DNA of 64,000 nucleotides from Macrostomum lignano (Eukaryota), in contig NIVC01001395.1 of NCBI GenBank assembly GCA_002269645.1, positions 233,505 to 297,504 on the forward strand. The letters run 5' to 3'. Position numbers and translations under genes: made by a program. This document shows, one piece after another, positions 2,516 through 46,798 of the stretch. Under the pieces are notes generated by a model. It made no database searches, was not told the origin of the DNA, and worked only from the letters and a program-made list of their open reading frames with translations. Position 1 is the stretch's first letter. Each line of letters opens with the position of its first letter.

Positions 2516-2655
2516 GTACAAGTTTGCGCGCTCGCAACTGTTAAATTTCTTCTTCTAGCAGTCCAGCTTTCATTGTCAACGAGCGGTGCTGCTCCTACAG
2601 CCACTTCGCTGCTTGAGAAATCCGCATTACCCTTTGCTAGAAGCAGCAAGCCAAC

Positions 2656-5386: not shown

Positions 5387-5538
5387 TGGAAGATACATCA
5401 TAATCTGTGTACTATACATATGCTCTCAGAATTATTTTAGTACTTTATTGGCCTATTAAATTATTGTGCTTTTTTAAATAGGCTTCTTACCTGGTTTTTC
5501 GTTCTTGACTATTTATTTTTCTTTGTTTTAGACATCAT

Positions 5539-5824
5539 TGAGTTGCTGGGCCAGCCTCCCAGATCCCCAGTTGCTGAGCCAGCAGCTTCCCATAGTGTCA
5601 TTAGCTGGGCCAGCCTCCCAGATCCCCAGTTGCTGGGCCAGCCTCCCAGATCCCCAGTTGCTGGGCCAGCCTCCCAGATCCTCAGTTGCTGGGCCAGCCT
5701 CCCAGATCCCCAGTTGCTGAGCCAGCCTCCCAGATCCCCAGTTTCTGGGCCAGCCTCCCAGATCCCCAGTTGCTGGGCCAGCCTCCCAGATCCTCAGTTG
5801 CTGGGCCAGCCTCCCAGATCCCCA
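5539..5824. repeat. 28-bp minisatellite (AGTTGCTGGGCCAGCCTCCCAGATCCCC)n
   Basis: About 10 units between SURF1 and GTF2H2. Confidence 0.9.
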
Positions 5825-5901
5825 GTGAATCATATTGCCAGTCAGTCAAGCAGGCACAGCCCCCATGCTTATTCCAGCCAAGAGTTTGAACAGCAAACAG
5901 C

Positions 5902-7929: not shown

Positions 7930-8470
7930 TAGTATATAAAAGAATAATATTTGTGCGCTAACAAAACTTTTGTACCTGAGCCAGTAAGTAACTTGCTTGA
8001 TAAAGATTCAGAACACCGGGAGTAAAGTAGATAAGTAGTCTTTATCTTTATTCAACACATTGGTTCACAGTGAGAGGTCCAGTGGTACATGCATAAGTCA
8101 TACGTCAAGCATTTAAAACTATGTTTGCTCTAATAATACACAATACAATAACTGCCTAATCGATGCAAAAGTATTTCATACGTTGTGACAGGTGTTTTTT
8201 TACTTTATTAACTCTCTTCTGTGCCTTACATTTGTTTATTTTCATAAGTAGCATTCATAGGAATACTTTAGTTAAACTAATTTAGGCTTTCTATATTGTC
8301 TAATACAATTAGGTCTACCGCTGTAGTCTCAGTTATTCTGTTAAAACGCTTAATATTTAGTATATAGGACTAGCAGCTTAGCCCCCATCGGGGGTAACTT
8401 ACGCTGACAACATTAGAACTGAAATTTGTCATTTTTGTCATCTAAAATCATTAAGATCAACCGCTACGGC

Positions 8471-8700
8471 GGTTGCAGCCTAGTGGTTATTAGAGCGTCG
8501 GATTCACGACTAAAAGGTCCCGGGGTTCGATTCTCGACCCACTCACAACAATTTGTGTCCTTGTGCAAGACACATTAACTCTGCATTGCTGCAGTTCACC
8601 CAGCTGTAGAATGGGTGCCCCCCAGTCCTTGGAGTGGAGCAATAACTACGGCTGAGCTGTCGGTTGTACATCTGGCTATTGGGTCAGGTGTAATTAATTA
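8471..8700 (+). mobile_element. tRNA-derived SINE with CORE-like central domain
   Basis: A box TAGTGGTTA, B box GGTTCGATTC, then TGTGTCCTTGTGCAAGACACATTAAC..CAGTTCACCCAGCTGTAGAATGGG, resembling the MIR/CORE consensus. Two more copies lie at 26418-26698 and 27021-27145. Confidence 0.75.
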
Positions 8701-8760
8701 TCATGTGTTTCTAATATATTTTAACTCCATCTATTTGCATGTGTCAACTCTACAACCGCA

Positions 8761-9660
8761 ATGGCAGCCACTTTAGACATTCGTTTGAAGCGTATTAACA
8801 AAACGTACACCGATGGTGACACAATCTCCGGCTATGCCGTGATTCGATGCAAACAAGACTGCGGTCACAATGGTCTCACATTGAATCTGACTGGCACAGT
8901 TAGCATGCAGCTTAGCTCAAAAAATGTCGGAGTATTCGAAGCATTCTATAACAGTATCAAGCCGATTCAATTGACCGGAGCCACACTAGAACTAGCTAAG
9001 CCCGGCAAATTCACCACCGGATTAACAGAAATCCCATTTGAAATACCGTTCAAATCCAAGGGTAACAAAACACTGTATGAGACATACCACGGAGTGTTCA
9101 TTAACATTCAGTACGTGCTTCAGTTGGACTTGAAACGCTCTCTATTGAACAAAGATCTCAGCAAAACTTGCGAGTTCTTAGTCGAATACAATCCAAAGAA
9201 TGCTGGCCAACCGAGCTCGCAGACGCCAATAACTTTCGCTATCAGCCCGGACAGTGTAGTCAATGTTCAGAACAAGGCCAGTCTACCGAAGTTTCGCGTC
9301 ACCGGCCAACTCACATCGAGTCACATTAGTATTTCTGAGCCACTGAGTGGCGAGCTAGTCATTGAGCAGTGCGCTACTCGGATTAAAAGTGTAGAACTGC
9401 AGCTGGTACGCGTAGAGACCTGCGGCTGTCTGGAAGGCTACGCTAAAGAGACTACTGAGATACAGAATATCCAAGTGGCTGATGGAGACGCTCCCAGAGG
9501 GATTAAAATCCCTCTGCACATGGTGCTGCCGCGTCTGTTCACCTGTCCGAGCGTTTCGGCTACCAATTTCCGAATCGAATTCGAAGTCAACATTGTTGTT
9601 GTGTTTCAAGACGACTATCTGGTGTCTGAAAATATCCCTATTCGCGTTAGCAGATTCTGA
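8761..9660 (+). CDS. VPS26C: VPS26C (DSCR3), retriever complex subunit, intronless
   Basis: MAATLDIRLKR..KTY, MQLSSKNVGVFEAFYNSIKPIQ, LYETYHGVFINIQY, IKSVELQLVRVETCGC.EGYAKE.TEIQNIQ, PRLFTCP match the family throughout. Confidence 0.96.
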   Translation: MAATLDIRLKRINKTYTDGDTISGYAVIRCKQDCGHNGLTLNLTGTVSMQLSSKNVGVFEAFYNSIKPIQLTGATLELAKPGKFTTGLTEIPFEIPFKSKGNKTLYETYHGVFINIQYVLQLDLKRSLLNKDLSKTCEFLVEYNPKNAGQPSSQTPITFAISPDSVVNVQNKASLPKFRVTGQLTSSHISISEPLSGELVIEQCATRIKSVELQLVRVETCGCLEGYAKETTEIQNIQVADGDAPRGIKIPLHMVLPRLFTCPSVSATNFRIEFEVNIVVVFQDDYLVSENIPIRVSRF

Positions 9661-14078: not shown

Positions 14079-14670
14079 CAGTATGCGCGCTGCTGTCATT
14101 TGATGCCAATTGACACCATGCATATCAAGGTGGGCATGTAGGCTGTACCTGAGAAGCTAAAAGCATACTTCTGCCAACTCTATCAATTCCCACCTATGCT
14201 TCTAGGCACATTCTCAAGACAAAGATTGTCAGTCAGCAGCCGAATCGTGTTCTTAAAAAAGTCGTCAGTTTGTCAGAAAATGAATCGCTTCTAAAGCGAA
14301 ATAATCAATATTTATGATCTGAGTTGCTTTAGAAATGCTTAAGCCAGTCTGTCAAAGCCACCTGCAAGTTTTCCTAGCAGACTTCAAGGCGCTGTCAACT
14401 GCATCATGGACATTCCCAGCATCCTTGGAACGGGGAATTTAAGCATAGAGCCATGCCAGTCAAACATTCTGAAAACCTTTTTGCAGACGGGGTAAGGCCT
14501 GAAGCGTAAAGCCTCTCAGTCCTTCTTGCTGTATTTTAACCAATCGGAGGTAAGACGCAACTGTAAACCTTTATAATGTATAAAATGGATTGCTGTGGTC
14601 TCAAACTTGCTAACTTCAATCCTTGACCTGCAACACCTATAGAAAGCTGAAGAAAGTTTGTCAATATATC

Positions 14671-15468
14671 ATGTCGACATTTAAACTGATGTTGCTTCTT
14701 CAAAGCGTTATTAACTGCCTGTTGCTGCCAGCCCTGGCCCAGCTGTGTCCCTCGCCGTTCAGTCTTGAGGCCGGAAAGTGCATCTTCGTGAACAAGGTGA
14801 GGAGCTTCAGCTGGTGCGAGGCCAACCGGCAGTGCGCCATGATCGGAGGCGAGCTGCTCAACTCGTACAGCTCTCTGCAGCCGCTCAGCAACATGCCGAG
14901 TTTCGCCTGCAGTTCCTGTTTCGTTTGGCTCGGAGTGACCGACTTGGCTGACGAGAGATTCTCCAGCAGATCGGGATTGCAGTTGGTCAATGGTAACGGC
15001 ATCTTGCCGCTGAATGACTCGCTGTGGCATTTTTCAACTGAGCCAAACAGGAACGTGTTTGAGAACTGCATCTTCCATGCATCCCATGGCAAAATCCACA
15101 ACAATCCATGCGCAGCTGAGCGCGGGTTCGCTTGCGAGTGGGCTCCGAGTGCCGCTCAGCCGCTGCCAACTGCTGCCTCGTGGAAGCTGACTCCGTTCAA
15201 GCGGACCAGCTACCATGCCAGCACTGAGTACTGCTACTCTGACCTGACCAATGTTCACTCCGAGCTGGCTTGTGTCATGTCAGCTTTCAGCTCTGGCAAC
15301 TGCAGACACGTGCTGTACAACAGCAAGCTGAGAGCCTGCCGCCTGCTGCTGTTCACCGACGCTCAGCTAGGTGGAGGCCGAGATCGAGACGAGCGCCGAC
15401 TGGGTCAAGTTCAGCGTGTACTGAGCAATATTGTTTGCATTGTTTGTAGTAATGATTGTTCTGCATAA
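14671..15468 (+). CDS. secreted C-type lectin + PAN/apple-like domain protein, intronless; C-terminus frameshifted by a 4-bp insertion
   Basis: Signal peptide, CPSPF..AGKC, WCEA..QC..IGGEL, WLGV.D, W..EPN..ENC, C..ERGFACE, then C...C..V.YNSKLRACRL. Paralogous to 57125-57892. Confidence 0.8.
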   Translation: MSTFKLMLLLQSVINCLLLPALAQLCPSPFSLEAGKCIFVNKVRSFSWCEANRQCAMIGGELLNSYSSLQPLSNMPSFACSSCFVWLGVTDLADERFSSRSGLQLVNGNGILPLNDSLWHFSTEPNRNVFENCIFHASHGKIHNNPCAAERGFACEWAPSAAQPLPTAASWKLTPFKRTSYHASTEYCYSDLTNVHSELACVMSAFSSGNCRHVLYNSKLRACRLLLFTDAQLGGGRDRDERRLGQVQRVLSNIVCIVCSNDCSA

Positions 15469-15892
15469 AATATGCGAATAATGATCGTCAAATTGCTAAA
15501 CAATGATTTTTATCCAGAGGCGTCGCCACCGGGGGGCAAGGGGGGACATGTGACCCTCTTCAATAGAGTGCCTGCGGCGCCAAGATGAGTGCTTGCGGAG
15601 CCAAAATGATTCCAAAAATAATATGGGAACTTTTTCTTTACTATTCCTGGTTTTGTTCCCACACAATAAGAACCATATCATGGCGGCACTTCATGTTTTT
15701 GCAAGACGATTTTTTCTCTTAAAGTCAGTTTCCTGTCCAATCATCCTGTCTGACTTTATGTCGCAAAGTCGCAAAGAATTTTAACGGAAAATTCAGCAAT
15801 TTCTAACCATCTTTATATTAAAAGAACCTTTTGTTATGATTATTTTTTAGTTTGAAATCTATTGTCTAAGCTGTCTGCACAAGGCCTTTGAA

Positions 15893-15972
15893 ATCTCGGC
15901 TTGGCTCTGCTCGTGCAATTAGCGCCTAGGTTGAAGGCCAAACCCCAGGGGACAAGGAAGTGTACATGCTAG
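15893..15972 (-). repeat. fragment of an unclassified dispersed repeat (other copies 28175-28435 and 56013-56245)
   Basis: Reverse complement of GCATGTACACTTC..GGTTTGGCC.TCAA.CTAGGCG.TAATTGCACGAGCAGAGCCAAGCCGAGATT at 28352-28431. Confidence 0.8.
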
Positions 15973-16149
15973 AAAAATAAAATTGATGGAATGGGTGGTT
16001 TTTCAAGCATAAAAGTTAAATGGGATTACCTAATTATGCGATATTGAATTTACTAGAAAGAAGAAACCTGCCGCCTTAAATTGACCCAAAAGTTGCGCGT
16101 CCGTTTTCGCTCTGGGATTGAAAGTGTCTGAACTTCCCGGACACATGAA

Positions 16150-16722
16150 ACTACGTATCGTGCAGAAACTGCTGGGTTTTGGAGGTGAGGTGGGTGTCAG
16201 AGCCAATGCAAATTCAACGCCTATCTAAATACATTAGACCTCTTCTAATTGGTCCAGACCCTGTAAGTCATTATGTGAGACATTTATGCATGTAACTCTC
16301 ATGTAAATCTAATTATACATGTAATCACTGTATCGTGCAGAAGCGACGAGTACAATATAGTACGCATAATTAGCGCTTCACCGTAGCAGTTGTTGTACGT
16401 AGAAATGCGCGCGCCCAGCCCCACACAATGCAGCATTGGTGTACGCAGAATTAACTGTACATATTAACTGTCCATATACCAAAATTGGCAGAATTAACGC
16501 GCGCCGACCCACCCCATAACTGTCCATATTATTACTTCTCCATATTTACTGTCCATCCCAAAATTGGTGTACGCGCAGAATTGTAGCGTCCGCCCACCCC
16601 ATAGCTGTTCGATCATACCCAAACTTCGTGTACGCGCAGAATTAGCGCCCACCCATCCAAGAAAATATTCTGTCGCCCCTCACAATTAATTGGCGGCCCC
16701 ACGCGGAGGCATGATGAGTCAG
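16150..16722 (+). repeat. left terminal inverted repeat
   Basis: Compared base by base with the reverse complement of 25706-26278: 2 mismatches (16575, 16701). An imperfect extension runs to ~16746. Confidence 0.97.
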
Positions 16723-16906
16723 CCGCTGTAAATCGCTGCTGTCCACACTGTTATATCCACTCCTTCCATACTTCACTCTCTAGAATTCAGCCCTCGTCGA
16801 CACTCCGAGACAATTACGTCACCCCCCAACCCCTCTCCCAAATAAGTTTTCAAAAGGCGTATATATATTTACACAAAAAGCCGGCCGAGCTTTGATACGT
16901 ATATAT

Positions 16907-17557
16907 TTATTTAGCATACACAATTGGGTGACGACCCAAAACGTTTGAATAATAGCGAGCAGGAGCATTTTGCAAACAGTTTACAATCAAGTATGAGTAG
17001 GGGTCGCGAGTAGCATCCTCATACGTTTTGACAAAACTTTTTGGATTAGTGGGGACCAGCTGCCTTGCAATATGAGACACTGTGCTGGCATCCCGTACAT
17101 TGCGGAATAAAACAAGGTAGTTCGAATTGAGCGACTGAGTTCGGTGCTCCTTACCCTTTGCAAAAAGGTTTTGCACAAGATACCAAAGTCGGAACCCCAC
17201 GTGGGAGACTTTGCGCGTGAAAAAAGTTGTAAAAGCGCCACTCTTTTCCATGGCATGCATTTGGTCGTCGACGACAAGCAGAATATTTGGTTCAGGGACA
17301 TATTGTTCAGGATCAAATGTACACGAACGAAAATTTACAGGGTACGGCAATTCAAACAGTTCAGGATCTGGATAGTGGCCAAACCAGTCTACGCGAATCG
17401 GCTTCGGATCTTGAAAAAATTCTTGTCTCAATAGGTTTTTCACAAGTGTGGTCTTGCCGCTTTGAGCCACCCCAGCAAAAATTGCAGACGTTTTGGGGGC
17501 AAATTTTAAAGAGTCGGGGTCTATTGTTTGATACATTTTGATAGGCCGCCCAATCAT
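16907..17557 (-). CDS. A32/FtsK-like genome packaging ATPase
   Basis: Walker A GVAQSGKT, Walker B LLVVDD, plus FTRKVSH..LVQNLF..RTQSLNSNYLVLFRN.RD typical of Polinton ATPases. AATAAA overlaps the stop. Confidence 0.93.
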   Translation of the reverse strand: MIGRPIKMYQTIDPDSLKFAPKTSAIFAGVAQSGKTTLVKNLLRQEFFQDPKPIRVDWFGHYPDPELFELPYPVNFRSCTFDPEQYVPEPNILLVVDDQMHAMEKSGAFTTFFTRKVSHVGFRLWYLVQNLFAKGKEHRTQSLNSNYLVLFRNVRDASTVSHIARQLVPTNPKSFVKTYEDATRDPYSYLIVNCLQNAPARYYSNVLGRHPIVYAK

Positions 17558-17559
17558 AT

Positions 17560-18009
17560 TTATGGATGATGCTGCTTTATTTGTAGACAGTGATTCTGCA
17601 CCATCAAGTCGTTCTCGTAAAGATTTGTGCTATAACAGTCGCGCAATATTTTTTCAATTGACAGACCCTCCAAAAAGTGTTTTTCAGCCACAAATATTAC
17701 ATGAGCCCCGCAGGTCACACTCAGCGGATGCTGTACAGGATGCCGATTCATGGCCACCTCCACAGGGACATACTTTGCGATCCACAACTTTAATAAATCT
17801 GGCACAGGATCGATACACAAGGGGTCAAAAAATGTCACGCTCTCATCGGCATGAAGACAAATTAAAGCCCAGTGAGTGCCTGGTAGATTGCCAGTGTCAA
17901 AGTTAATCACGTATGCAGCAGGATAAGCAGGCTGCGGAATCCTGTCAACTGGTGTTACTCGAACAGGGGCAGGTAGTATTAGACGTTCTAATATATCTAG
18001 ACTATTCAT
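17560..18009 (-). CDS. adenain-like cysteine maturation protease
   Basis: YVINFD..PGTHW, FFDP, PVQ..SVTCG: the H-D-Q-C catalytic set is intact. Confidence 0.92.
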   Translation of the reverse strand: MNSLDILERLILPAPVRVTPVDRIPQPAYPAAYVINFDTGNLPGTHWALICLHADESVTFFDPLCIDPVPDLLKLWIAKYVPVEVAMNRHPVQHPLSVTCGAHVIFVAEKHFLEGLSIEKILRDCYSTNLYENDLMVQNHCLQIKQHHP

Positions 18010-18056
18010 ATTGGCATGAATGTGGCCGTTATTCGGGAATAAAAAAATGTTTGTTT

Positions 18057-19340
18057 CTACACGTAGTCTAGAATAACCTGACGACCGCGAGTGATTTGCA
18101 CAGTATTGTCAAAGTAGCCAAACACCAACACGTTGATTTCTGCGGCCAAGGCAGCAGAAAACTTTATTTGTAGCGTCAGATTCCCTCGCTCGCGAGGCAT
18201 GCTATGCCCGCCCAGCTCCATGTCGGGCATGAGATTCCAGGCGAAGAAGCAGTAGCCAGCTCCATAGTCGGAATATGATACGTCAATATCCAGGTCCCGA
18301 TTCATCTTTCCGAGGCTTTTTAGTAGCATGGCATACTCGCGAGCATAGTTATGAACACCGAATCGAGGAGTAAACGGTTGTCCACACAGACTGACTCCGT
18401 CCTTATACAGAGCGACACTGTCGGCACCAAATGGCTCAAAATTAAACGGGTTATGTGTAGCCACACCGTTGTACGCGCCGCTGTTTACCATGCCAACAAC
18501 CATTAGTTTAGGCTTTTGTTCAGGAAATATATTATTGATTGACATGTCCCGAACACCGCCAGCCACTGAAGTATTGTGCACAACAAGTCGCTCAATCGGA
18601 TAGATTGCATTCTGTTTGCCTAGTTGTTCTTCAATCTCCAATGCCAATTGGGGGTTTGCCTTGACGCGGCGCACATGTAGTTTGGCACTCTCGAGTACTA
18701 GCCGCGCATCAACCCCGTCCGCGTGGTTTTCCAGAACGAAGCCGGAATTGTGCATGGTCAGCGTAATTACCATATCAGTGTATGGCAGTAGCATTCGGTC
18801 GTTGGTAACAAAAAAGTCTAAACTAAGAGGTCCATAAAGGTGAAAGGTGCGTGAGTTTGCTGCCATCGCCTTGCGGGCTACAAAGCCAGGATTTCCAACC
18901 ACAGCCATTTGACCTCCAGCGTCCTTTGCGTAGCCCATCATTCTCAGTTGGTTGGTTTTTGAATCGTGTCCGTAATTCAAACACGTGCGAATGTAGGCTT
19001 TGTAAGCGTGGTTGTTATTGCTCGACTCTACGTGTGTCCCGTTGATTGTCAACGTGACGTTTTTAAACATGCTTTCAAGGACGTAATTGACCGGCGCAAC
19101 ATTCGAATCAGCAGCAAGATTTGTGCCATTAGATTGCCTAACGCGGGCCTTAATCTCGAGGTCAATGTCGTTAAGATCGATAAACGTCTCACCACCAACA
19201 ATCCTAAATTCGACCACGCTGGCATTTTCAACACTGGCAACAGGGTGAACTTCTTCAGTGGTGGCGCTAATTGCAGCAATTTGGTGTGCACGAGGAGCAA
19301 ATAGCTCGAATTCCGACTTTGTACACAGGCACTCAGTCAT
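18057..19340 (-). CDS. double jelly-roll major capsid protein
   Basis: 427 aa with KSEFELF, VEFRI..FIDL, PVNY.LESMF, YKAYI..LNYG, KP..VVGMV..AYNG..NPFNF, DY..GY.FFAWNL.PD and L.L.IKFS.AL, matching the Polinton/adintovirus hexon pattern. Confidence 0.93.
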   Translation of the reverse strand: MTECLCTKSEFELFAPRAHQIAAISATTEEVHPVASVENASVVEFRIVGGETFIDLNDIDLEIKARVRQSNGTNLAADSNVAPVNYVLESMFKNVTLTINGTHVESSNNNHAYKAYIRTCLNYGHDSKTNQLRMMGYAKDAGGQMAVVGNPGFVARKAMAANSRTFHLYGPLSLDFFVTNDRMLLPYTDMVITLTMHNSGFVLENHADGVDARLVLESAKLHVRRVKANPQLALEIEEQLGKQNAIYPIERLVVHNTSVAGGVRDMSINNIFPEQKPKLMVVGMVNSGAYNGVATHNPFNFEPFGADSVALYKDGVSLCGQPFTPRFGVHNYAREYAMLLKSLGKMNRDLDIDVSYSDYGAGYCFFAWNLMPDMELGGHSMPRERGNLTLQIKFSAALAAEINVLVFGYFDNTVQITRGRQVILDYV

Positions 19341-19358
19341 TTTTCTTTCAACAGCGGC

Positions 19359-19751
19359 TTAGTGTGGTGCTCTAATAGACAGATCAGTTATTGGCACGGG
19401 TTTTTTATTTATAGAGTCGAAAATATCAGAATGCTGCAGTCTTTTTCTCGTTTTTTTGTTAGTCATCTTTCTTCGTCTTTGTCTGCCGCTACCTCGTTGT
19501 GCGACTGTGTCCTTGAAAGCATCTTTAGCTGCCTGGACAGAGTTACGCAATGCTTCTTCTTTCAAGTTCCCGCCTTGATCGAGTGTGTCGTTAACTGTTG
19601 TAGCTAGGGCTCGTGTTCCGTGGCGAAGAATATTTTTGCCAAAACTCTTTAAAATTGGCAGGGCAAATCGGGCAATGCTGCCAAACAGGCCGTTGCCGCG
19701 CTGTGCACCGGAAAATACCGGTAAAGCTCCTCCGATCAAGATTGAAGGCAT
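19359..19751 (-). CDS. basic core/membrane-lytic-like protein with amphipathic helix (cupiennin-like class of adintoviruses)
   Basis: QRGNGLFGSIARFALPILKSFGKNIL amphipathic segment, QRGSG followed by an Arg/Lys tract, and position next to the capsid genes. Confidence 0.7.
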   Translation of the reverse strand: MPSILIGGALPVFSGAQRGNGLFGSIARFALPILKSFGKNILRHGTRALATTVNDTLDQGGNLKEEALRNSVQAAKDAFKDTVAQRGSGRQRRRKMTNKKTRKRLQHSDIFDSINKKPVPITDLSIRAPH

Positions 19752-19795
19752 ATTGTCGATCAGTTGCTACCTTTTATTCGTGAAAACTTCTTTAT

Positions 19796-20948
19796 TTATA
19801 GCTTAATTTCACGAATGTTGATCGATAAAACAGTTTTACCTCGAAGAATCCGATCCATTAACTTGCCCATATCGTCACAGATTTGCACCTCAATGGTTTT
19901 GAATGGGTGTTTCACCAACGGTAAGTAGGATGGATTGACAAACTCGTAGTACTCTCGTTCGCCGTATACCTTTTCATTCAAAGGAATTGCCCCAAGCAGG
20001 GGGACTTTGACGTCTCCAACAATGGCAGAGTCGACAATATTTGAATAGATGTACATAGTTTGTACACCATTTGTTAAATCGATTGGTCGTTTAGCGGTCT
20101 TTGGAGTTTCATTGAAAACATCTTCGCGAAAGCCGAGAATGGCAGCAAGCTCTCCAATGTCGAATAAAATGTTTTCAATGGGTTTGTACTCACACCGGTT
20201 CAGAAAAGGGTTGTAGCGGAATGCATCCACTCTCGTCGCTGGACTTATTGGGAGCTTTGAAACGACGCTCCAAAGCGCTCCATTAACATAATTTAAGAGC
20301 TCGTCAGGCGTGCGGTAGAACCCTTTAGCAATCCGCAGTGACGTTCTAGAAGGCCAGATACTCTTTTCAAACGTTAGAGTCATGGGACTCTATATGGAGG
20401 AGGAGGTCTCCAATTCTATAGCGAATACTAAAGAATTTCTTGGGTTTAATAAAAAAGTCGTTACTTCGATATTTGATTTATTTCCAGCGTCGTCAACCTT
20501 TTTAAACATGCTACACACATTACTGGACAGCCTAATGTTCGCACCATACCATGATTTGTTCACAATTGAAATTTGGCCTTCCTGTGAACGCTCAATGCAA
20601 ATCATCGCATTATCGTCTTGCTCATATTTTAGAGCGGCGATGATTGCATCAACCACTTCGTTGGCTGTTGATAGCCCCGCGGGAGAGAAACCGACGCAAA
20701 CTGTTTATACGTGGAGGCGGGTTTTTCTCTACCTCAATGTCAATCACTTCATCCTCGGGAGCGTTGGTCAGGACATCAACCATTCGATTATCGGGGACGG
20801 TTTTGAATTCTTTACAAAAGTAGATCCGTTCGATGCAGACTTCATGATTCGGAAAGTGGAGGGTGTCGGGCAAATTAATGCTATAATGTGCCGAATTATT
20901 CTCAGGATAGTGCTCAACGCACGCATTGCTAGGTAGGAATAGATGCAT
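19796..20948 (-). CDS. minor capsid protein (penton), split over three ORFs by apparent 1-bp lesions
   Basis: N-terminus MHLFLPSNA..YPENNSAHYSINLP..EVCIERI and C-terminus MYIYSNIVD..VGDVKVPLL..NPSYLPL..IEVQICDD.G are penton hallmarks. Frame changes at ~20724 and ~20671, plus a TAG at 20390-20392 or compensating shifts. Confidence 0.82.
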
Positions 20949-20982
20949 TGTAATATACCACACGTTTCGAGTGTATGTGTGT

Positions 20983-21975
20983 TCATCCTTGTCTTATATT
21001 TATAACTTCCTCAACTGGTACAAATGCATTGAACGACTCGGGATAGCCGCGCCAACTAACGAAATGATGAGCAACACCATTGATGACGACATTGCGACGC
21101 AGAATTTTGTCTATAACAAAGCGGTCCGGTCGAACCGTCTTTGAAAGTTCATTATAGTAGAATCGACCCTCGATTTGTTCTCCAGATAGGTCGGAAATGC
21201 GATAAAAATGAGGCGGTCCCGGGCATACTTGAGACACAACGTAAACTTCTTCGCTGTACATATCGTATGCTTCCTTGTCAAAGGCTCGACGAGATTTTGA
21301 AATTCTGACAAAGTCCCCTTTTTGGTAAACTGGTTCATCATATTCAGGATCCTTGTAGAGCTTTTCCCACAATTCTTTTTGGTTGTGCAGACCGACACTC
21401 GAAGGTTTCATATCAATAGTAGAGTGTACTGTGTTGTTGTAACTTTTAACCAATATTGGCAAATAGTCGATCCAACGCCACGTGTTTTTATGCTCAAAGT
21501 AGCGAGCTAAACGTTTTCGGAGAGTCCTAATCAGCCTTTCAGCCATATTTGCCTTGTATACAGAGTTTGTACTGTACATTTTGATATTATTGGCTTTCAG
21601 TAAGTTCTGCATGCGATTGTTATAAAACTCGGTACCTCGATCAACGTGTAGATATAAAGGCTTAATGGGGAAGTCTTTAATCATGCTTTCAAAAGCCTTT
21701 GGAGTGTCGCTTTTCAATTTTATTGCCTGGCACTACTTTACATGACATTACTTTTCCGGTTTGGAATTTTCTTTTAACCCTCTTGTGCCGGGTGTAGCTC
21801 GATTGGGTCTTCAGCCATTCGTCTGTTTGGCGTCTCGTCAGGGAGGGGACCAGCCGTTTGGCCTCCTGATATACACGGGCAGCATTTGTAAAAGCGGCGT
21901 CCCCCTGTTCGTACACTCTCCGAAGAGCGGTTTTCACCCAGCGGTTTTCACCCAACTAGATTCGATGCACAGCAT
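20983..21975 (-). pseudogene. retroviral-like (rve) integrase with C-terminal chromodomain, inactivated
   Basis: WL..Q.SYTRHKRVKRKF, VDRGTEF (2nd D), AERLIRTL (E), WIDYLP.LV.SYN...HSTI, chromodomain IDKIL..FVSWRGYP. A 14-bp tandem duplication (21926-21953) frameshifts the N-terminus, and the segment carrying the first catalytic Asp is missing near 21730. Confidence 0.88.
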
Positions 21976-22046
21976 GAGTAATTACACTTGAACTCCACAG
22001 ACGGTTTGTCTGAGCAAAGCTTTGAAGTTACAGCTGCGGCACCCAT
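21948..22046 (-). CDS. putative 32-aa Cys-rich MG-start microprotein
   Basis: MGAAAVTSKLCSDKPSVEFKCNYSCCASNLVG*, 37 nt downstream of a CTATAAATA box. Below the ORF track cut-off. Confidence 0.4.
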   Translation of the reverse strand: MGAAAVTSKLCSDKPSVEFKCNYSCCASNLVG

Positions 22047-22086
22047 GATCCAAAAACAGATTATATATCATGAAAATGATTTCTAT

Positions 22087-22737
22087 TTATAGTTTTTTTA
22101 ACGTCTCGTATTTTACTGCTGGTTTCTGCCGCCTCTTTGGTTCGCGAAGTTGGTATGAAGCATGCCTGTAGGCATCGCTGCCACGATCTTCATATTTTTT
22201 AATTTCATTCTGGCCACTGGCTTGGTCTTTGTGGAAGTCGTTGTAGAAATCATTAGTTCCAATTGCTTGCTCGACTAAAAAATCGTCTCGATCCGGATCC
22301 GTGCCGACTTCTTTTTTCACACTGACTTCTTCTTGTTGGTGTCGTCCTAGTAGAGCTTTTGCAATATCTGCCTCTTCGGCCAGGGCCCAAAAAGCGGTAC
22401 TATATTTTGGGCTTGGGCGGTCGCGCCTTTCATTCGATGTAATCTCCTTCAATAGATCGAAAATATTGCTTCCTGGCCAGGTTTTTCCATCAAATACAAT
22501 TTCCCACGACTTGTTGTACTCCAAATTTGGGTATCTTTCTGTCAGCATGTCCCAAACAAGTTGTTGTCGTTCAGGAAAACGATTACTCTTCTTTTGCTTG
22601 ATCTGACTTAGTTTATTTTGGAGTTGAGTGTTGTATTCAATGAGTTTTTCATATTCTGTTTTGGATGCAATTTCTCGGGGTGCGCCTTGACTTAGTCTAT
22701 TAAATTCTTCTTCTGGTACAACAACGTATTTATTCAT
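22087..22737 (-). CDS. conserved Polinton hypothetical protein (GSNI.DL motif family)
   Basis: MNKYVVVPEEEFNRL start directly after the upstream stop, and WEIVFDGKTWPGSNIFDLL resembles a recurrent Polinton unknown protein. Confidence 0.65.
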   Translation of the reverse strand: MNKYVVVPEEEFNRLSQGAPREIASKTEYEKLIEYNTQLQNKLSQIKQKKSNRFPERQQLVWDMLTERYPNLEYNKSWEIVFDGKTWPGSNIFDLLKEITSNERRDRPSPKYSTAFWALAEEADIAKALLGRHQQEEVSVKKEVGTDPDRDDFLVEQAIGTNDFYNDFHKDQASGQNEIKKYEDRGSDAYRHASYQLREPKRRQKPAVKYETLKKL

Positions 22738-22738
22738 T

Positions 22739-23095
22739 TTAGCGACCGAGTAGTCCGCCAAACAGGCTTGATATTAGCGGTGCAGCAACGGATGCAAGGA
22801 TGGGTAGAAAGCCACCGACTTGAGGATTCGAGAGAAGCATATTCTTCTTCCTATTTATAGACAATTTTGTGTCTGCCAATTCACGCAACGATCTTCTGTA
22901 TCGCTTTAATCGCAGATACTGTTTCGGAGAAAGATCGATATTTCCCCGGAGCACGTTGTGACTCAATTCACAGAGACAATGAATCAGTTCCTTGCCTGCA
23001 CCTCGAATAATTGCCCGCCGAAGAGCGGGTCGGGCTTTGGCGAGCTCTGCGAGCTCGCCGCGACAAGAACATAGTCTGGAGATTCCGTTTGTCAT
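22739..23095 (-). CDS. adenovirus pX-like core protein (conserved in adintoviruses)
   Basis: LIHCLCELSHNVLRGNIDLS..LKRYRRSLRELA..KK.ML..QVGGFLPILASVAAPLISSL. The GGFLP.L tail resembles adenovirus pX. Real ATG at 23095. Confidence 0.75.
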   Translation of the reverse strand: MTNGISRLCSCRGELAELAKARPALRRAIIRGAGKELIHCLCELSHNVLRGNIDLSPKQYLRLKRYRRSLRELADTKLSINRKKNMLLSNPQVGGFLPILASVAAPLISSLFGGLLGR

Positions 23096-23341
23096 TTTGT
23101 TTAGCAAAAAGATGTTGGTTGCAGTGCACTGCAATTTATGCACAATATATTTATAGACAATTTCATAGCAGCTTGTACGTACATACAAATTCGGTACAGT
23201 GGTAAAACAGTAAAGTTACGCAACAGCTACATGGATTAGACATGCAAAACGCTAGTCACATGATCGTACATTTGACAGAGCTCTTTAAAGCTTCGTATTC
23301 CAAGAAAAACAAGGTGGCCATTCTTTCCGCATAATAAACAT

Positions 23342-23716
23342 TTAGCCTTGCGAAATGGAGACTTTATTACTATTCCATTGAAAACTTCGCACTCCCACTT
23401 CACCCAGTGGGACCCGTAGTATGCAATTTGGAAAAAAAATTGGCAATCTGTCTACTTCAGCGCGGTAAGTACTAGTGGTAACAACAACAGAAATTGGTTT
23501 ACATTGAGGAAAAAGACGCAAAACTTGGTTGACTGAGCGACAACCGAATACAATTGCAGACAAAGAACGCTGAAAAAAGTTGATTGTACATTTTCCTATT
23601 CGCAAATTGATAAGAGCTCTTGGTCTGCGAAATGTCCGTGCGCTCGCCCAGTCCAAGTCAGGCATGCGGCTCCATTTCGCGCAAAACACTCGTTTCACAC
23701 ACTCGACGTTCTGCAA
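23342..23716 (-). CDS. TBP (TATA-binding protein)-like domain, no in-frame ATG
   Basis: Hand alignment to the TBP core: LQNVECVKRVFC ~ LQNIVSTVNLGC; ALINLRI ~ AAVIMRI at identical spacing; IVFGCRSVNQ ~ VCTGAKSEEQ; second repeat FPNCILRV..SNKVSI ~ FPGLIYRM..SGKVVL. The track start is TTG. Confidence 0.55.
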   Translation of the reverse strand: MQNVECVKRVFCAKWSRMPDLDWASARTFRRPRALINLRIGKCTINFFQRSLSAIVFGCRSVNQVLRLFPQCKPISVVVTTSTYRAEVDRLPIFFPNCILRVPLGEVGVRSFQWNSNKVSISQG

Positions 23717-24447
23717 GTAGATTTTTCGGCAGTTTTTACTTTCGTATCCTTCTTGGGGGCTTTCGACCGCTTCTTTGATTCGTTGGCTGCTACTAGTTTC
23801 GATTGATGCTGTCGCTTTCTGGCCTGATTTTTAGGCACCTTTGGCTGCTTCTCCTTGACAAGCTTTGGTGGTTTCTTTGCTTTCTTGCTTACTTTCTTGG
23901 TGCCTACCTTGATTTTTGGAGGTGGCATCCAATAGCAACGGTCGAATGCCTGTTTGGCTTCTTCGACAAACTGTAGCTGTTGAATTTTTGGCATTGCGGT
24001 CAAAACAGCGTCTCGAATCACGGCCGTGTCGAGAGTAAACAGAATCCTGTAGTAGCCGCTCTTGTTTTTGTAATCCTTTACAGGCAGTCCGTTCTGGTCG
24101 TACATTTTAAAGTCGTGAGCCAGCCCAAACGCTGCACTGTCACCTCCAAACGCTGGGTTGTAGCCCAGCAGAGCTAGACTTTCGCTGGAAAGGTGCTCCG
24201 CCACAGTGTTGAAAGTGTAGGGTATGCAGCTTTCAATGTGTTTTTGTGCAATGATGATGAATTCGCGACCTTCGTTGTCAGTACGCACACCTTTGACAAT
24301 CAAAACAGGGACCGCATTGGCCAAGTAGAGAGGTCCCTGTTCGTCATATTCAATGTCAAACGTTTCAACCCCGTTGAAGCTCGGACCTCGCGGTTTGAGT
24401 GCCAGCAGCTCTCGCTTGACGCAGTTGAAGTCTTGCACTGTCTCCAT
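23695..24447 (-). CDS. hypothetical protein: possible OB-fold ssDNA-binding domain plus Lys-rich tail
   Basis: 250-aa ORF with ATG and an upstream TATGTAAG. MYDQNG..KSGYYRILFTL..KIQQLQFVE loosely resembles gp2.5/DUF2815-type SSBs; the last ~70 aa are very Lys-rich. Confidence 0.6.
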   Translation of the reverse strand: METVQDFNCVKRELLALKPRGPSFNGVETFDIEYDEQGPLYLANAVPVLIVKGVRTDNEGREFIIIAQKHIESCIPYTFNTVAEHLSSESLALLGYNPAFGGDSAAFGLAHDFKMYDQNGLPVKDYKNKSGYYRILFTLDTAVIRDAVLTAMPKIQQLQFVEEAKQAFDRCYWMPPPKIKVGTKKVSKKAKKPPKLVKEKQPKVPKNQARKRQHQSKLVAANESKKRSKAPKKDTKVKTAEKSTCRTSSV

Positions 24448-24565
24448 GTCTCTTGTCTGTTTAGAAAAATTTGCAGGTACGGGCGCTTGCAGATGCTTCG
24501 GGCTGGTGCTTACATACCCGAGAGTCTCAATAAGTTTTTGTTTTAATTACACGATAACGAGCTTT

Positions 24566-25078
24566 TTACAGAGTTGTCGTTATCGAGGATTCCGGAAAAA
24601 TGAACCTTTTGTTTCTATTTTCGGGTGCTGGCGTTGGAGGCGTGCTGAAATCCTTGCTCCAAGTTGCGGGTAGTTCAAGCTTTGGCGGCCTGTTCCTCTT
24701 GTGCTTTGGCAGCCAAAAATTCCAAATCTTTTGTTGCTCCTCCCACGACGGATTATACAGATCTTGATGGTTCCGAAAACGTATTTTTTGGCGATGCTCT
24801 TCACTTAGTATCGGAGCCAGTAATCTCTCCATTCGTGCTAAATCAGCTTTGAATCTCATTTTGTCCCGTAGTTGCTCATTTATCCTGGCTGCTGCGTAGT
24901 CTTGGCTGTCGTAGGGGCCTTGATCAATTTCCTCGACCTTGGCATTGAAGGTGACTAATCGCTCGGAAATCGGTTTGCTGTGGCAAATGCACAACCAGTC
25001 AGCAGATTTTTTCAAGGCCTCATATTCGTCTTTTTCCTCGTTCGATAATAGGGGGTAGTCTCTGGAAATCCAGCTCAT
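24566..25078 (-). CDS. hypothetical protein (170 aa), no recognised family
   Basis: ATG-started ORF with TATATAAG at 25200-25207; its C-terminal part is duplicated at 25157-25406. Confidence 0.6.
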   Translation of the reverse strand: MSWISRDYPLLSNEEKDEYEALKKSADWLCICHSKPISERLVTFNAKVEEIDQGPYDSQDYAAARINEQLRDKMRFKADLARMERLLAPILSEEHRQKIRFRNHQDLYNPSWEEQQKIWNFWLPKHKRNRPPKLELPATWSKDFSTPPTPAPENRNKRFIFPESSITTTL

Positions 25079-25156
25079 TTCTTGTCAAGCACTTGCTGCG
25101 TTGTTCGCACTAGTGGTGGGAATGTTATTTGAGCTTAGAAAACTGCCGAGAATCCG

Positions 25157-25501
25157 AGAAAAATTTGCAGGTACGGGTGCTTGGTGCTCCAGGTTGGTGC
25201 TTATATACCCGAGAGTCTCAATAAGTTTTTTTTAATTACATGTTAACGAGCTTTTTACGGTGTTGTCGTTATCGAGGATTCCAGAAAAAATGAGCCTTTT
25301 GTACCTATTTTCGGTGCTGGCGTTGGAGGCCTTGCTCCTTGCTCCAAGTTGTTGGCAATTCATGCTTTGGCGGTCTGATCCTCTTGTGCTTTGGCAACCA
25401 AAAATTGCTTGTCAAACACTGCGTTTTCCACACGATTGGGTTGTTAATTGAACTTGGTGAATTTAGATAAACGGCCGAGAATCCAAATTTTCTTATTTAT
25501 A
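25157..25501 (-). pseudogene. internally deleted, degenerate upstream copy of the 170-aa gene with its own TATA box
   Basis: 25157-25406 aligns to 24463-24721 (NFWLPKHKR.RPPK.ELP.TWSK). 25407-25420 matches 25081-25093, GCCGAGAATCC occurs at both 25474 and 25145, and there is no ATG. Confidence 0.75.
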
Positions 25502-25705
25502 GTTTGCTGTCTGAACAAAATTGGTTTGGCATCTTGTTAAACGAGAATATTTCATGCATAGAAGTTTGTGTTTTCAGACCTTGATGACGTGTCTGGCTAT
25601 AAAGTTAGCATTGTGGCTCGACCGGGTTGTTGCGTAACACTGCTGCAGGTAGCTATATCGGCCAGCGCAGGGCAGAGGGGTGGACAGCGGCGATTTACTG
25701 GCTGA

Positions 25706-26278
25706 CTGACTCATCATGCCTCCGCGCGGGGCCGCCAATTAATTGTGAGGGGCGACAGAATATTTTCTTGGATGGGTGGGCGCTAATTCTGCGCGTACAC
25801 GAAGTTTGGGTATGATCGAACAGCTATGGGGTGGGCGGACGCTACAATTCTGTGCGTACACCAATTTTGGGATGGACAGTAAATATGGAGAAGTAATAAT
25901 ATGGACAGTTATGGGGTGGGTCGGCGCGCGTTAATTCTGCCAATTTTGGTATATGGACAGTTAATATGTACAGTTAATTCTGCGTACACCAATGCTGCAT
26001 TGTGTGGGGCTGGGCGCGCGCATTTCTACGTACAACAACTGCTACGGTGAAGCGCTAATTATGCGTACTATATTGTACTCGTCGCTTCTGCACGATACAG
26101 TGATTACATGTATAATTAGATTTACATGAGAGTTACATGCATAAATGTCTCACATAATGACTTACAGGGTCTGGACCAATTAGAAGAGGTCTAATGTATT
26201 TAGATAGGCGTTGAATTTGCATTGGCTCTGACACCCACCTCACCTCCAAAACCCAGCAGTTTCTGCACGATACGTAGT
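25706..26278 (-). repeat. right terminal inverted repeat
   Basis: Reverse complement of 16150-16722, followed by TSD CATGAA. Confidence 0.97.
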
Positions 26279-26417
26279 CATGAAAGACACCTGGACGTCC
26301 TACTCGAAGCGTGTCCAATGCAAGACTCTCCATCAAATCTGATTATGACTTATGGGGAAATTGCTGAAATTCTGTGACTTACGAATTAGAACTCTGTTTC
26401 TTAATAATAATTGATTA

Positions 26418-26698
26418 CACCTGCCCTAATGGGTCAGATGTGCAACCGACAGCTCAGCCGCAGCTATTGCGCGGCGCATCTGAAGGCTGCGTACGGCTGT
26501 TCAGTCCAATGACTGGGGGTCGCCACACACCCCCAATTACCCCAGCTAATGCTGGCATTCATTTTACAGCTGGGTGAACTGAAGCAATGCAGAGTTAAGT
26601 GTCTTTCTCAAGGACACAAATTGTTCTGAGTGGGTCGAGAATCGAACCCGCGACCTTCAAGTCGTGAGTCCGACGCTCTGACCACTAGGCTAGAACCC
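26418..26698 (-). mobile_element. tRNA/CORE-like SINE, near full-length copy
   Basis: Reverse complement matches 8471-8700 (B box, CORE-like domain, CAACCGACAGCTCAGCCG tail). Confidence 0.78.
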
Positions 26699-27020
26699 CT
26701 TAGTCTTTCTCCTACTATTTCTTAAGATATGAAAACTAAAAGTTGTGACAGTACAAAGTCGAAATCTACAAGTAGTTGTTACATCTGATTTTTCCCGACA
26801 ATGTGATCTGCTTGAGCACGTTAGTAAAATCCTGTTTTACTCTGCTTTCCGTGATTAAGTATATTTGAAAACTTATTTTTTATTCAAATTGAATTGATTT
26901 ATCGCAGGTGTGGTAATTTTAATAAAGTTTTGTTAGCTAAGAGAAACAATCAGGGTTTAAAAATTAGCGAAAAAATTTGAGGTAAATCATGTTGCGCAAA
27001 GATAAGGTTAAAAATTAAAA

Positions 27021-27145
27021 CCCCAGCTAATGCTGGCACCCATTTTACAGCTAGGTGAGCTGAAACAATGCAGAGTTGAGTGTGTCTTGCTCAAAGAGTG
27101 AGTCGAGAATCGAACCCGCGACCTTTCAATCGTGAGTTTCGATGA
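27021..27145 (-). mobile_element. truncated copy of the same SINE
   Basis: CCCCAGCTAATGCTGGCA..TTTTACAGCT.GGTGA.CTGAA.CAATGCAGAGTT..GTCGAGAATCGAACCCGCGACCTT shared with 26540-26660. Confidence 0.72.

Positions 27146-27286: not shown

Positions 27287-46798
<19,512 letters not shown>

What the first reader, a model, noticed from the sequence alone, without database searches (positions are those of the whole stretch)
16150..26278. End-intact endogenous Polinton-like virus with a virion module but no DNA polymerase
Seen: near-identical 573-bp TIRs, a perfect 6-bp TSD, and ATPase, protease, major capsid, penton, core proteins and integrase all on one strand. No ORF or relic with pPolB motifs is visible anywhere in 10.1 kb. 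Established: Polintons/adintoviruses are defined by pPolB plus integrase and are usually larger. Inference: this is either a deletion derivative or a polymerase-less, helper-dependent lineage that carries TBP-like and SSB-like genes at that end.
Basis: partly seen in the sequence, partly recalled or inferred. Interest (0 to 1): 0.82.

Follow-up and report, generated by a model that had tools for sequence, protein, structure and literature searches.

The report
Flatworm Polinton copy lacking its polymerase
A virus-like jumping element sits in what is probably a flatworm genome with perfect ends and capsid genes but no DNA-copying enzyme; it is most likely a damaged, helper-dependent copy of a known kind of element, and its most unusual part is a probable spliced gene joining a DNA-binding protein to a TATA-box-binding-like protein.

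Summary
In detail: a 10,129-bp element with 573-bp TIRs (2 mismatches), a perfect CATGAA target duplication, all genes on one strand, and no pPolB, helicase or primase; the largest unassigned gap is 273 bp. But only the ends are intact. The integrase has lost the stretch bearing its first catalytic aspartate, the penton is in three pieces, the TBP-like gene is frameshifted, and there is a duplication/deletion scar at the right end. The SSB-like gene is supported by fold (ASFV CP312R Z 11.8, T7 gp2.5 Z 9.5). Its nearest named relative is from Macrostomum lignano. New here: SSB and TBP-like frames look like two exons of one gene, conserved in 5 of 5 relatives tested; a GADD34/DP71L-like ORF; seven TATAAATA boxes on the gene strand. 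Whether the 10-kb form recurs, or relatives carry pPolB, could not be tested: no eukaryotic genome context was available. PolB-less polintons that stayed mobile are already reported in butterflies. Best reading: non-autonomous deletion derivative of a Polinton/adintovirus family (0.65); a stable replicase-free lineage remains possible (0.25).

The parts
16144..16149 (.). Left target-site duplication CATGAA
16150..16722 (.). Left TIR, 573 bp (to about 16,746 with small gaps); terminus ACTACG; short internal sub-repeats
16907..17557 (-). Packaging ATPase (A32/FtsK-like), 216 aa, open
   Evidence: Walker A match, weak P-loop Pfam hits E 0.016-0.17, no meaningful PDB hit; family label from gene context and recall
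17560..18009 (-). Adenain-like cysteine protease, 149 aa, open
   Evidence: His/Asp/Gln/Cys pattern seen (pattern recalled); no Pfam or PDB hit
18057..19340 (-). Major capsid protein, 427 aa, open
   Evidence: 16 relatives among 8000 scored; three at 78-80%, animal 'F54H12.2-like' proteins at 29-33%, one fused in a gene model to an rve integrase; fold not tested, no PDB profile hit
19359..19751 (-). Basic core protein, 130 aa (PW/cupiennin-class by position between penton and MCP)
   Evidence: gene order in PMC8097293 section 7; label inferred
19796..20948 (-). Minor capsid (penton) in three pieces: 20,649-20,948, 20,390-20,704, 19,796-20,389 (one frameshift, one in-frame stop)
   Evidence: identity from position and recalled motifs, no Pfam hit
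20983..21955 (-). rve integrase with C-terminal chromodomain, broken: about 100 nt missing across the first catalytic aspartate with a change of frame near 21,720-21,760, and a further break at the 5' end
   Evidence: tblastn of P0015: residues 31-73 and 122-247 match only 43 nt apart; Pfam rve E 1.5e-4, Chromo E 0.0067
22087..22737 (-). 216-aa ORF, unassigned (PZ-like by position only)
   Evidence: no family hit
22739..23095 (-). 118-aa ORF with a pX-like amphipathic C-terminus (GasderminX/PM-class, inferred)
   Evidence: description in PMC8502044 section 3.2; motif recalled
23236..23710 (-). TBP-like exon (two-repeat pattern), frameshifted in a homopolymer run in this copy
   Evidence: weak PDB hits to microsporidian TBP; frame conserved in 5 of 5 relatives tested
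23711..23907 (-). Putative 197-nt GT-AG intron between SSB and TBP-like exons
   Evidence: only donor-like match in 2.5 kb falls where homology ends; acceptor-like site at the TBP-frame start; boundary residues kept and spacer 19-60 codons long in relatives; inferred, no RNA evidence
23908..24447 (-). T7 gp2.5/NCLDV-type OB-fold single-stranded DNA-binding domain, 180 aa, open
   Evidence: model pLDDT 72.9; CP312R Z 11.8 rmsd 3.9 over 157, gp2.5 Z 9.5 rmsd 3.3 over 125; 115 BFVD hits at E<=0.001
24463..24721 (.). Internal direct repeat copy 2 (3' end of ORF170 plus promoter of the SSB gene)
   Evidence: 86.5% over 260 bp to 25,157-25,406
24566..25078 (-). 170-aa ORF, GADD34/ICP34.5/DP71L-like PP1-recruiting protein (lead)
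   Evidence: Atlas first hit PF10488 cluster, score 0.93, 183 shared features; VxF at 42-44, D-x-x-RF and LxxxL at 87-91, but lacks the Trp of the motif in PMC5346070; no Pfam/PDB hit; 0 of 25 candidates homologous
25157..25501 (-). Scar: a TATAAATA box and leader joined directly to the 3' end of an ORF170 paralog (repeat copy 1, 25,157-25,406), with no gene body
19406..25501 (-). Seven TATAAATA boxes (19,413; 19,800; 21,004; 22,091; 22,859; 23,155; 25,501), six of them 45-122 nt upstream of a gene start
   Evidence: 7 observed on the gene strand, 0 on the other; mean 0.14, max 2 in 300 Markov simulations; 2 in the other 54 kb
25706..26278 (.). Right TIR (from about 25,680 with small gaps)
26279..26284 (.). 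Right target-site duplication CATGAA

Best explanation
This is a recently inserted, non-autonomous copy of a Polinton (Maverick/adintovirus) family of Macrostomum-like flatworms, derived from a longer parent by loss of the pPolB gene. In the parent, a pPolB with its fused terminal protein would prime at the TIR ends and copy the linear genome by strand displacement, helped by the OB-fold SSB; the virion module packages it and the rve integrase inserts it with a 6-bp duplication (established Polinton model; pPolB-terminal protein fusion in PMC11161782). This copy keeps the cis signals (TIRs) and most virion genes but has no replicase and a dead integrase, so it cannot copy or insert itself now. 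It either was copied and inserted with proteins from an intact relative in the same cell, or lost the genes after insertion. Shown: ends, TSD, gene content, lesions, SSB fold, a family of relatives. Inferred: that the parent has pPolB, where the deletion lies (candidate: the scar at 25,407-25,500, or the short spacers at 16,747-16,906 and 23,096-23,235), and helper use.
For: Integrase lacks about 48 codons of the reference including the first catalytic Asp; penton in three pieces; TBP-like exon frameshifted; promoter-to-3'-end scar and 260-bp duplication at the right end, so deletions do occur in this copy. SSB retained with no helicase, primase or polymerase, unlike Tlr1/PLVs, which swap in another replicase. 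Length is 2.6 kb below the smallest of the intact vertebrate Mavericks (12,723 bp) and 96% of vertebrate loci are degraded. Group 1 Maverick-Polintons mostly carry protease, pPolB and rve; a 'great majority' of >10-kb adenain contigs carry PolB. Direct precedent: polB-lacking polintons with TIRs that amplified in Pieris mannii beside near-identical polB-bearing copies (10.1101/2025.02.07.637071).
Against: No pPolB relic at all; a random deletion usually leaves a stump (inference). The scar is fully explained by an ORF170 paralog losing its body and does not point to pPolB. Gene order (ATPase last, all one strand) and termini (ACTACG) differ from the vertebrate pattern, so the family may differ in other ways too. 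TIR divergence predicts 2-56 interior substitutions and cannot date the lesions relative to insertion.
Confidence: 0.65

Rival explanations
1. A stable replicase-free lineage: the whole clade (window MCP plus P0001-P0003) never carries pPolB and lives as a satellite. It borrows pPolB/terminal protein from another Polinton or DNA virus, supplies its own SSB, capsid and integrase, and uses an SSB-TBP fusion and a GADD34-like protein to favour its own late gene expression.
For: Clean absence of relic and tight packing (943 bp unassigned). The MCP forms a distinct supported clade (99/99 for four rows, 100/99 with P0004) far from named animal Polintons (29-33%). SSB-intron-TBP arrangement conserved in 5 of 5 relatives tested and visible in a sixth distant one. 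Precedent for mobility without polB.
Against: Only one locus seen, and it is damaged. Conservation of SSB/TBP says nothing on pPolB absence; an SSDBP label also occurs among PolB-bearing adintovirus maps (Fig. S2 text, placement read from page layout). Known polymerase-less relatives carry a substitute helicase or primase.
Confidence: 0.25
2. The parent used a different replicase (AEP/S3H or S1H fusion, as in group 2 Maverick-Polintons, Tlr1 and some MELD viruses), and that gene was deleted here.
For: Replicase swaps are common in this virus group; the SSB is most like NCLDV SSBs.
Against: Only one Walker A in the element, in the ATPase; long TIRs with a short terminal repeat fit protein priming (inference); swaps are described mainly for group 2, while this element has the cupiennin/gasderminX-type module (inferred labels).
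Confidence: 0.05
3. The missing polymerase and some lesions are assembly errors (collapsed or mis-joined repeat copies, homopolymer slips).
For: One frameshift lies in an 8-base homopolymer; the window is rich in simple repeats.
Against: Matching TSD on both sides, near-identical TIRs, no Ns, and long error-free ORFs; the integrase deletion is not a homopolymer event.
Confidence: 0.05

Closest known systems
Polintons/Mavericks/adintoviruses (Polintoviricetes), Beta-type virion module (PMC8502044; PMC8097293)
   Same: Long TIRs, 6-bp TSD, rve integrase with chromodomain, block order integrase-penton-PW-MCP-protease, packaging ATPase, pX-like accessory ORF
   Different: No pPolB; 10.1 kb against 12.7-24.6 kb for intact vertebrate copies; ATPase placed after the protease; termini ACTACG//CGTAGT rather than (AGT)2, (AG)3 or (AC)3A; SSB-TBP-like and GADD34-like accessory genes
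polB-lacking polintons of Pieris mannii and a second insect group (Pannagram preprint 10.1101/2025.02.07.637071)
   Same: TIR-flanked polintons with virion genes and no polB; mode of mobilisation open
   Different: Those carry LINE or LTR cargo, are shown to recur and have polB-bearing siblings; here there is no cargo, one locus, siblings unknown
Tlr1 of Tetrahymena and Polinton-like viruses (PMC5499653, PMC4028283)
   Same: Capsid genes, ATPase and (Tlr1) rve integrase without an active pPolB
   Different: They carry an SF1/SF3 helicase or primase-polymerase instead, and Tlr1 lacks the protease; this element has a protease and no replicase of any kind
T7 gp2.5 / Enc34 / ASFV CP312R / NCLDV SSB fold
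   Same: Predicted OB fold of 23,908-24,447
   Different: 5-17% identity; here probably spliced to a TBP-like domain
Herpesvirus vTBP (KSHV ORF24 class; search listing only) and the TBP label in MELD-virus maps (PMC8502044 figure legend)
   Same: A virus-encoded TBP-like domain beside repeated TATA-type boxes before late genes
   Different: No homology tested; TATAAATA is a canonical box that host TBP could bind; no SSB-TBP fusion found in searches
GADD34 / ICP34.5 / DP71L PP1 regulators (PMC5346070)
   Same: VxF motif, D-x-x-RF and LxxxL at similar spacing in ORF170; Atlas 0.93
   Different: Conserved Trp missing; no Pfam or PDB hit; no sequence relatives found

Membership tests
Polinton/Maverick/adintovirus | Long TIRs and 5-8 bp (usually 6 bp) TSD | tested here: met
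   ranges
Polinton/Maverick/adintovirus | rve integrase (adintovirus: with C-terminal chromodomain) | tested here: met
   Pfam rve and Chromo, tblastn; gene is broken in this copy
Polinton/Maverick/adintovirus | Protein-primed family B polymerase (with TP and vOTU domains) | tested here: not met
   so this copy is not an autonomous Polinton, though it is built like one
Polinton/Maverick/adintovirus | MCP recognisable by sequence as Polinton-type | tested here: met
   E 1e-55 to 1e-70 to named animal proteins, one fused to rve in a gene model; that F54H12.2-like proteins are Polinton capsids is recalled
Polinton/Maverick/adintovirus | Double jelly-roll fold of MCP, single jelly-roll penton | tested here: inconclusive
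   no PDB profile hit, no Pfam hit; not folded
Polinton/Maverick/adintovirus | Packaging ATPase and adenain protease | tested here: inconclusive
   Walker A and catalytic-type residues seen; no significant library hit
Tlr1 / helicase-type PLV | SF1 or SF3 helicase or primase-polymerase in place of pPolB | tested here: not met
   no such Pfam hit, single Walker A, no room
Mobile non-autonomous (helper-dependent) Polinton | Same deleted form at independent loci with different TSDs; polB-bearing siblings | not testable with these tools
   single copy in the 64-kb window; no eukaryotic genome collection open
T7 gp2.5/NCLDV-type SSB | OB fold with capping helix | tested here: met
   Z 11.8, rmsd 3.9, 157 aligned (CP312R); Z 9.5, rmsd 3.3, 125 aligned (gp2.5); top two Foldseek PDB hits CP312R
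TBP superfamily | Two-repeat saddle fold | tested here: inconclusive
   E 0.31-1.3 to microsporidian TBP for the second repeat, nothing for the first, no Pfam TBP; not folded
GADD34/ICP34.5/DP71L | RVxF motif plus eIF2alpha-binding motif | tested here: inconclusive
   Atlas 0.93; motif partly met; Pfam and PDB blank

The most novel reading that the evidence does not exclude
A flatworm clade of capsid- and integrase-encoding Polintons that has no replicase at all and persists as a satellite of other DNA viruses or Polintons, running its late genes from TATAAATA boxes with a spliced SSB-TBP fusion that could couple displaced single-stranded genomes to transcription, and blocking translation shut-off with a GADD34 mimic.
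Probability: 0.2. Interest if true: 0.72.

Novelty: new variant of a known kind. Interest (0 to 1): 0.4.

Why it matters
As a one-off deletion it is ordinary: degraded Polintons are the rule and polB-less mobile copies are reported. It matters more for the family it reveals. I found no description of Macrostomum Polintons (no listed paper combined the terms in searches; supplement search 66 blank but the file was cut). Macrostomum is a tractable laboratory animal, and this family has recent insertions, several capsid subfamilies and genes typical of an active virus (SSB, TBP-like factor, probable eIF2alpha phosphatase recruiter). That makes two open questions testable: whether animal Polintons form virions and how polB-less copies are mobilised. 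A spliced SSB-TBP fusion, if RNA confirms it, would be a new domain pairing.

Tried and rejected
Relatives with context: prokaryotic genome scan, 0 relatives among 36 pattern matches (the alignment query was unusable); phage tblastn with the SSB ORF, no match; cluster look-up unavailable; viral and metagenome contig collections closed, so recurrence and sibling gene content stayed unchecked. ORF170 relatives: 0 of 25 candidates, near lengths only, so a fused longer form was not searched. First SSB model (7 rows) failed, pLDDT 35.5; adding one distant relative gave 72.9 in the best of five models, the others 37-52. Atlas gave no usable hit for SSB; PDB profile search none. Profile search hits P0025-P0027 (3 of 7) were dropped as repeat artefacts; P0023 is a truncated relative. 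P0017 was left out of the frame test because it is a gene model with an internal duplication; P0024 came later and was only inspected by eye. The TBP-like domain was not folded, so its fold is open. PHROGs gave only transposase hits for the integrase and one unnamed weak hit. Considered and rejected: SSB, ORF170 or the TBP-like frame as pPolB N-terminal relics (SSB fold differs; profile search over all lengths found no long polymerase-size true relative); SSB as a substitute replicase; lesion excess as proof of pre-insertion damage (P of 0 TIR indels 0.46-0.60). Papers with no useful passage: PMC11131425, 10.64898/2026.10.13.758929, PMC11414722. Starrett Table S1 and files S2-S5 were not visible and may list flatworm elements; preprint supplements were closed.
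Full report
Observation. The element spans 16,150-26,278 (10,129 bp). Its ends are complementary at 571 of 573 positions, the match runs on with two small gaps to about 597 bp, CATGAA flanks both ends, and the flanks do not pair further out. The termini read ACTACG and CGTAGT, which is none of the three end motifs listed for vertebrate Mavericks (PMC8097293 section 7). There is no second copy in the 64-kb window. The surrounding DNA is eukaryotic, with SURF1, Ssl1/p44, Vps26, C-type lectin, LRR and Ig-domain exons among long simple repeats. The nearest named relative of an element protein is a Macrostomum lignano UniRef entry (P0017; 72% over the N-terminal domain), so the host is probably a Macrostomum flatworm; this is inference.

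Gene content. On the minus strand, from right to left: ORF170, SSB, TBP-like, ORF118, ORF216, integrase, penton, core protein, MCP, protease, ATPase. The MCP has 16 relatives among 8000 candidates scored: three at 78-80%, one at 45%, the rest at 29-35%, including animal 'F54H12.2-like' proteins and an Ephemera gene model fused to an rve integrase. In a 16-row tree the window MCP groups with P0001-P0003 (99/99) and then P0004 (100/99); the tree has no named reference or outgroup. The integrase hits Pfam rve (E 1.5e-4) and Chromo (E 0.0067). The ATPase, protease, penton and small core ORFs have no significant Pfam or PDB hit; their labels rest on motifs I recall and on the block order integrase-penton-PW-MCP-protease described for Mavericks.

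No polymerase. Six frames read through stops gave only rve. Eighteen frames over the three unassigned regions gave no polymerase family. Strict pPolB motif patterns had no match in the element; the only Walker A is the ATPase's; unassigned gaps total 943 bp and the largest is 273 bp. A whole replicase is therefore excluded. A very short relic of a Beta-class PolB is not, since that class is under 30% identical to PF03175 and I had no positive control.

The interior is damaged, which the finding does not say. Residues 31-73 and 122-247 of the Ephemera integrase match two different frames only 43 nt apart, so about 100 nt are missing, including the first catalytic aspartate; the 5' end has a further break. 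The penton is in three pieces. The TBP-like frame is broken at an 8-base homopolymer, which could be a sequencing slip. At the right end a 260-bp segment is duplicated at 86.5%, and a TATAAATA box at 25,501 with its leader runs straight into the 3' end of an ORF170 paralog with no gene body. MCP, protease, ATPase, core, ORF118, ORF216 and the SSB exon are open. TIR divergence predicts about 16 (2-56) interior substitutions, and the interior indels are not in significant excess over the TIRs (P 0.46-0.60), so the lesions cannot be placed before or after insertion.

Accessory genes. The 250-aa ORF has 6 relatives among 675 candidates at 54-61%; a profile search of 1.84 billion proteins returned 7 hits, of which 4 are real relatives and 3 repeat artefacts that I dropped. 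With 8 rows the first 176 residues folded at pLDDT 72.9 in the best of five models. The best matches among 48,161 chains are ASFV CP312R (Z 11.8, rmsd 3.9, 157 aligned), T7 gp2.5 (Z 9.5), Enc34 SSB (7.8) and DUF2815 (7.4); Foldseek agrees and finds 115 viral models at E<=0.001, the top 50 nearly all from large DNA viruses. The SSB call is thus supported.

Homology to relatives stops at codon 180-181, exactly at the only donor-like site my pattern found in 2.5 kb; an acceptor-like site (one of 3 matches) lies 197 nt on, at the start of the TBP-like frame. All five contig-derived relatives keep residues compatible with both sites, separated by 19-60 codons. In their 30-residue tails 67 of 97 differences from the window are explained by first-position changes only, against 122 of 354 in the SSB domain (Fisher P 1.5e-9, inflated because the relatives are not independent), and 20-24 of 29 positions are compatible with the window's TBP-like frame against 5-6 in shuffles. 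The distant P0024 shows similar boundary residues. I infer a two-exon SSB-TBP-like gene conserved across the family. Against this: there is no RNA evidence; all five relatives also keep the unspliced frame open, so an unspliced product or a frameshift may be used; and the TBP identity is weak (E 0.31-1.3 for the second repeat; nothing for the first; no Pfam TBP).

TATAAATA occurs 7 times on the gene strand and never on the other (simulated mean 0.14, maximum 2 of 300; 2 in the other 54 kb), six times 45-122 nt before a gene start. It could be the target of the TBP-like factor, but it is also a canonical TATA box for host TBP. ORF170's first Atlas hit is a PF10488 cluster (0.93, 183 shared features; family on 41% of members). 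It has VxF at 42-44, D-x-x-RF and LxxxL at 87-91, close to DP71L spacing, but lacks the tryptophan of the published motif, and Pfam, PDB and the protein search were blank. It is a lead for a GADD34/ICP34.5/DP71L-like protein.

How it works. In Polintons the terminal protein is part of pPolB (PMC11161782), so an element without it can neither prime nor elongate. SSB cannot replace it. Tlr1, PLVs and group 2 Maverick-Polintons that lack pPolB carry a helicase or primase-polymerase instead; this element has none. With a dead integrase as well, this copy is inert or depends on a helper. The simplest history is deletion from a pPolB-bearing parent (0.65). It is 2.6 kb shorter than the smallest intact vertebrate Maverick, and 96% of vertebrate loci are degraded. 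The Pannagram preprint reports polB-lacking, TIR-flanked polintons that amplified in Pieris mannii alongside polB-bearing near-identical copies, and a second such group; it was the only paper returned by a search for such phrases, and a search for 'non-autonomous polinton' phrases returned only the Tlr1 paper. The case for a stable replicase-free lineage (0.25) is the clean absence of any relic and the distinct clade. The test that separates them, copy number and sibling gene content, could not be run: no eukaryotic genome collection was open, and the prokaryotic scan found nothing.

Papers seen. PMC8502044: passages, sections 3.1 and 3.2, supplement part 1 and a supplement search. PMC8097293: passages and section 7. 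Passages only: PMC10748475, 10.1101/2025.02.07.637071 (35), PMC11131425, 10.1101/2024.03.25.586562 (38), 10.64898/2026.10.13.758929 (56), 10.64898/2026.06.19.733378 (57), PMC5499653, PMC4028283, PMC11161782, PMC11414722, PMC5346070. Herpesvirus vTBP papers: search listing only. Searches listed no paper on an SSB-TBP fusion or a GADD34-like gene in Polintons; a TBP label does occur in a figure legend on MELD viruses of non-animal eukaryotes.

Verdict. Real feature, built like a Polinton, not an autonomous member because pPolB is absent. The flatworm family and its accessory genes are the part worth following. New variant of a known kind; interest 0.4.

Noticed in passing
window 14,614-15,468 (+) and 57,125-57,898 (-): Two related intronless C-type lectin-like ORFs 42 kb apart; the second hits Lectin_C (E 3.9e-5), the first has no Pfam hit at 0.001.
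   Followed up: partly
window 26,404-26,700, 8,471-8,704 and 27,020-27,137: A dispersed host repeat (78-87% identity among copies) right of the element, with a tRNA-like segment near 26,630-26,690 that ARAGORN does not call; possibly a SINE.
   Followed up: partly
window 15,888-15,984 and 28,335-28,435: A 100-bp host repeat in inverted orientation on either side of the element, 87% identical.
   Followed up: no
window 2,559-9,660: Compact cluster of SURF1, TFIIH p44 (Ssl1) and Vps26-family genes whose introns are filled with long tandem repeats.
   Followed up: no
window 40,800-45,800: About 4 kb of (CTGT/CTGC)n microsatellite followed by a 0.7-kb block of the same repeat in inverted orientation.
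   Followed up: no
window 16,860-16,867: A TATATATA box just inside the left TIR with no ORF behind it on the plus strand; a candidate orphan promoter and possible deletion site.
   Followed up: no
window 20,390-20,704 (-): The middle penton piece resembles part of the third piece, like the nested loop inserts described for adintovirus pentons (passage); judged by eye only.
   Followed up: no
P0017 (UniRef A0A1I8G3E6): A Macrostomum lignano gene model named 'PGA_cap domain-containing' actually contains the SSB domain of this element family with an internal duplication.
   Followed up: partly
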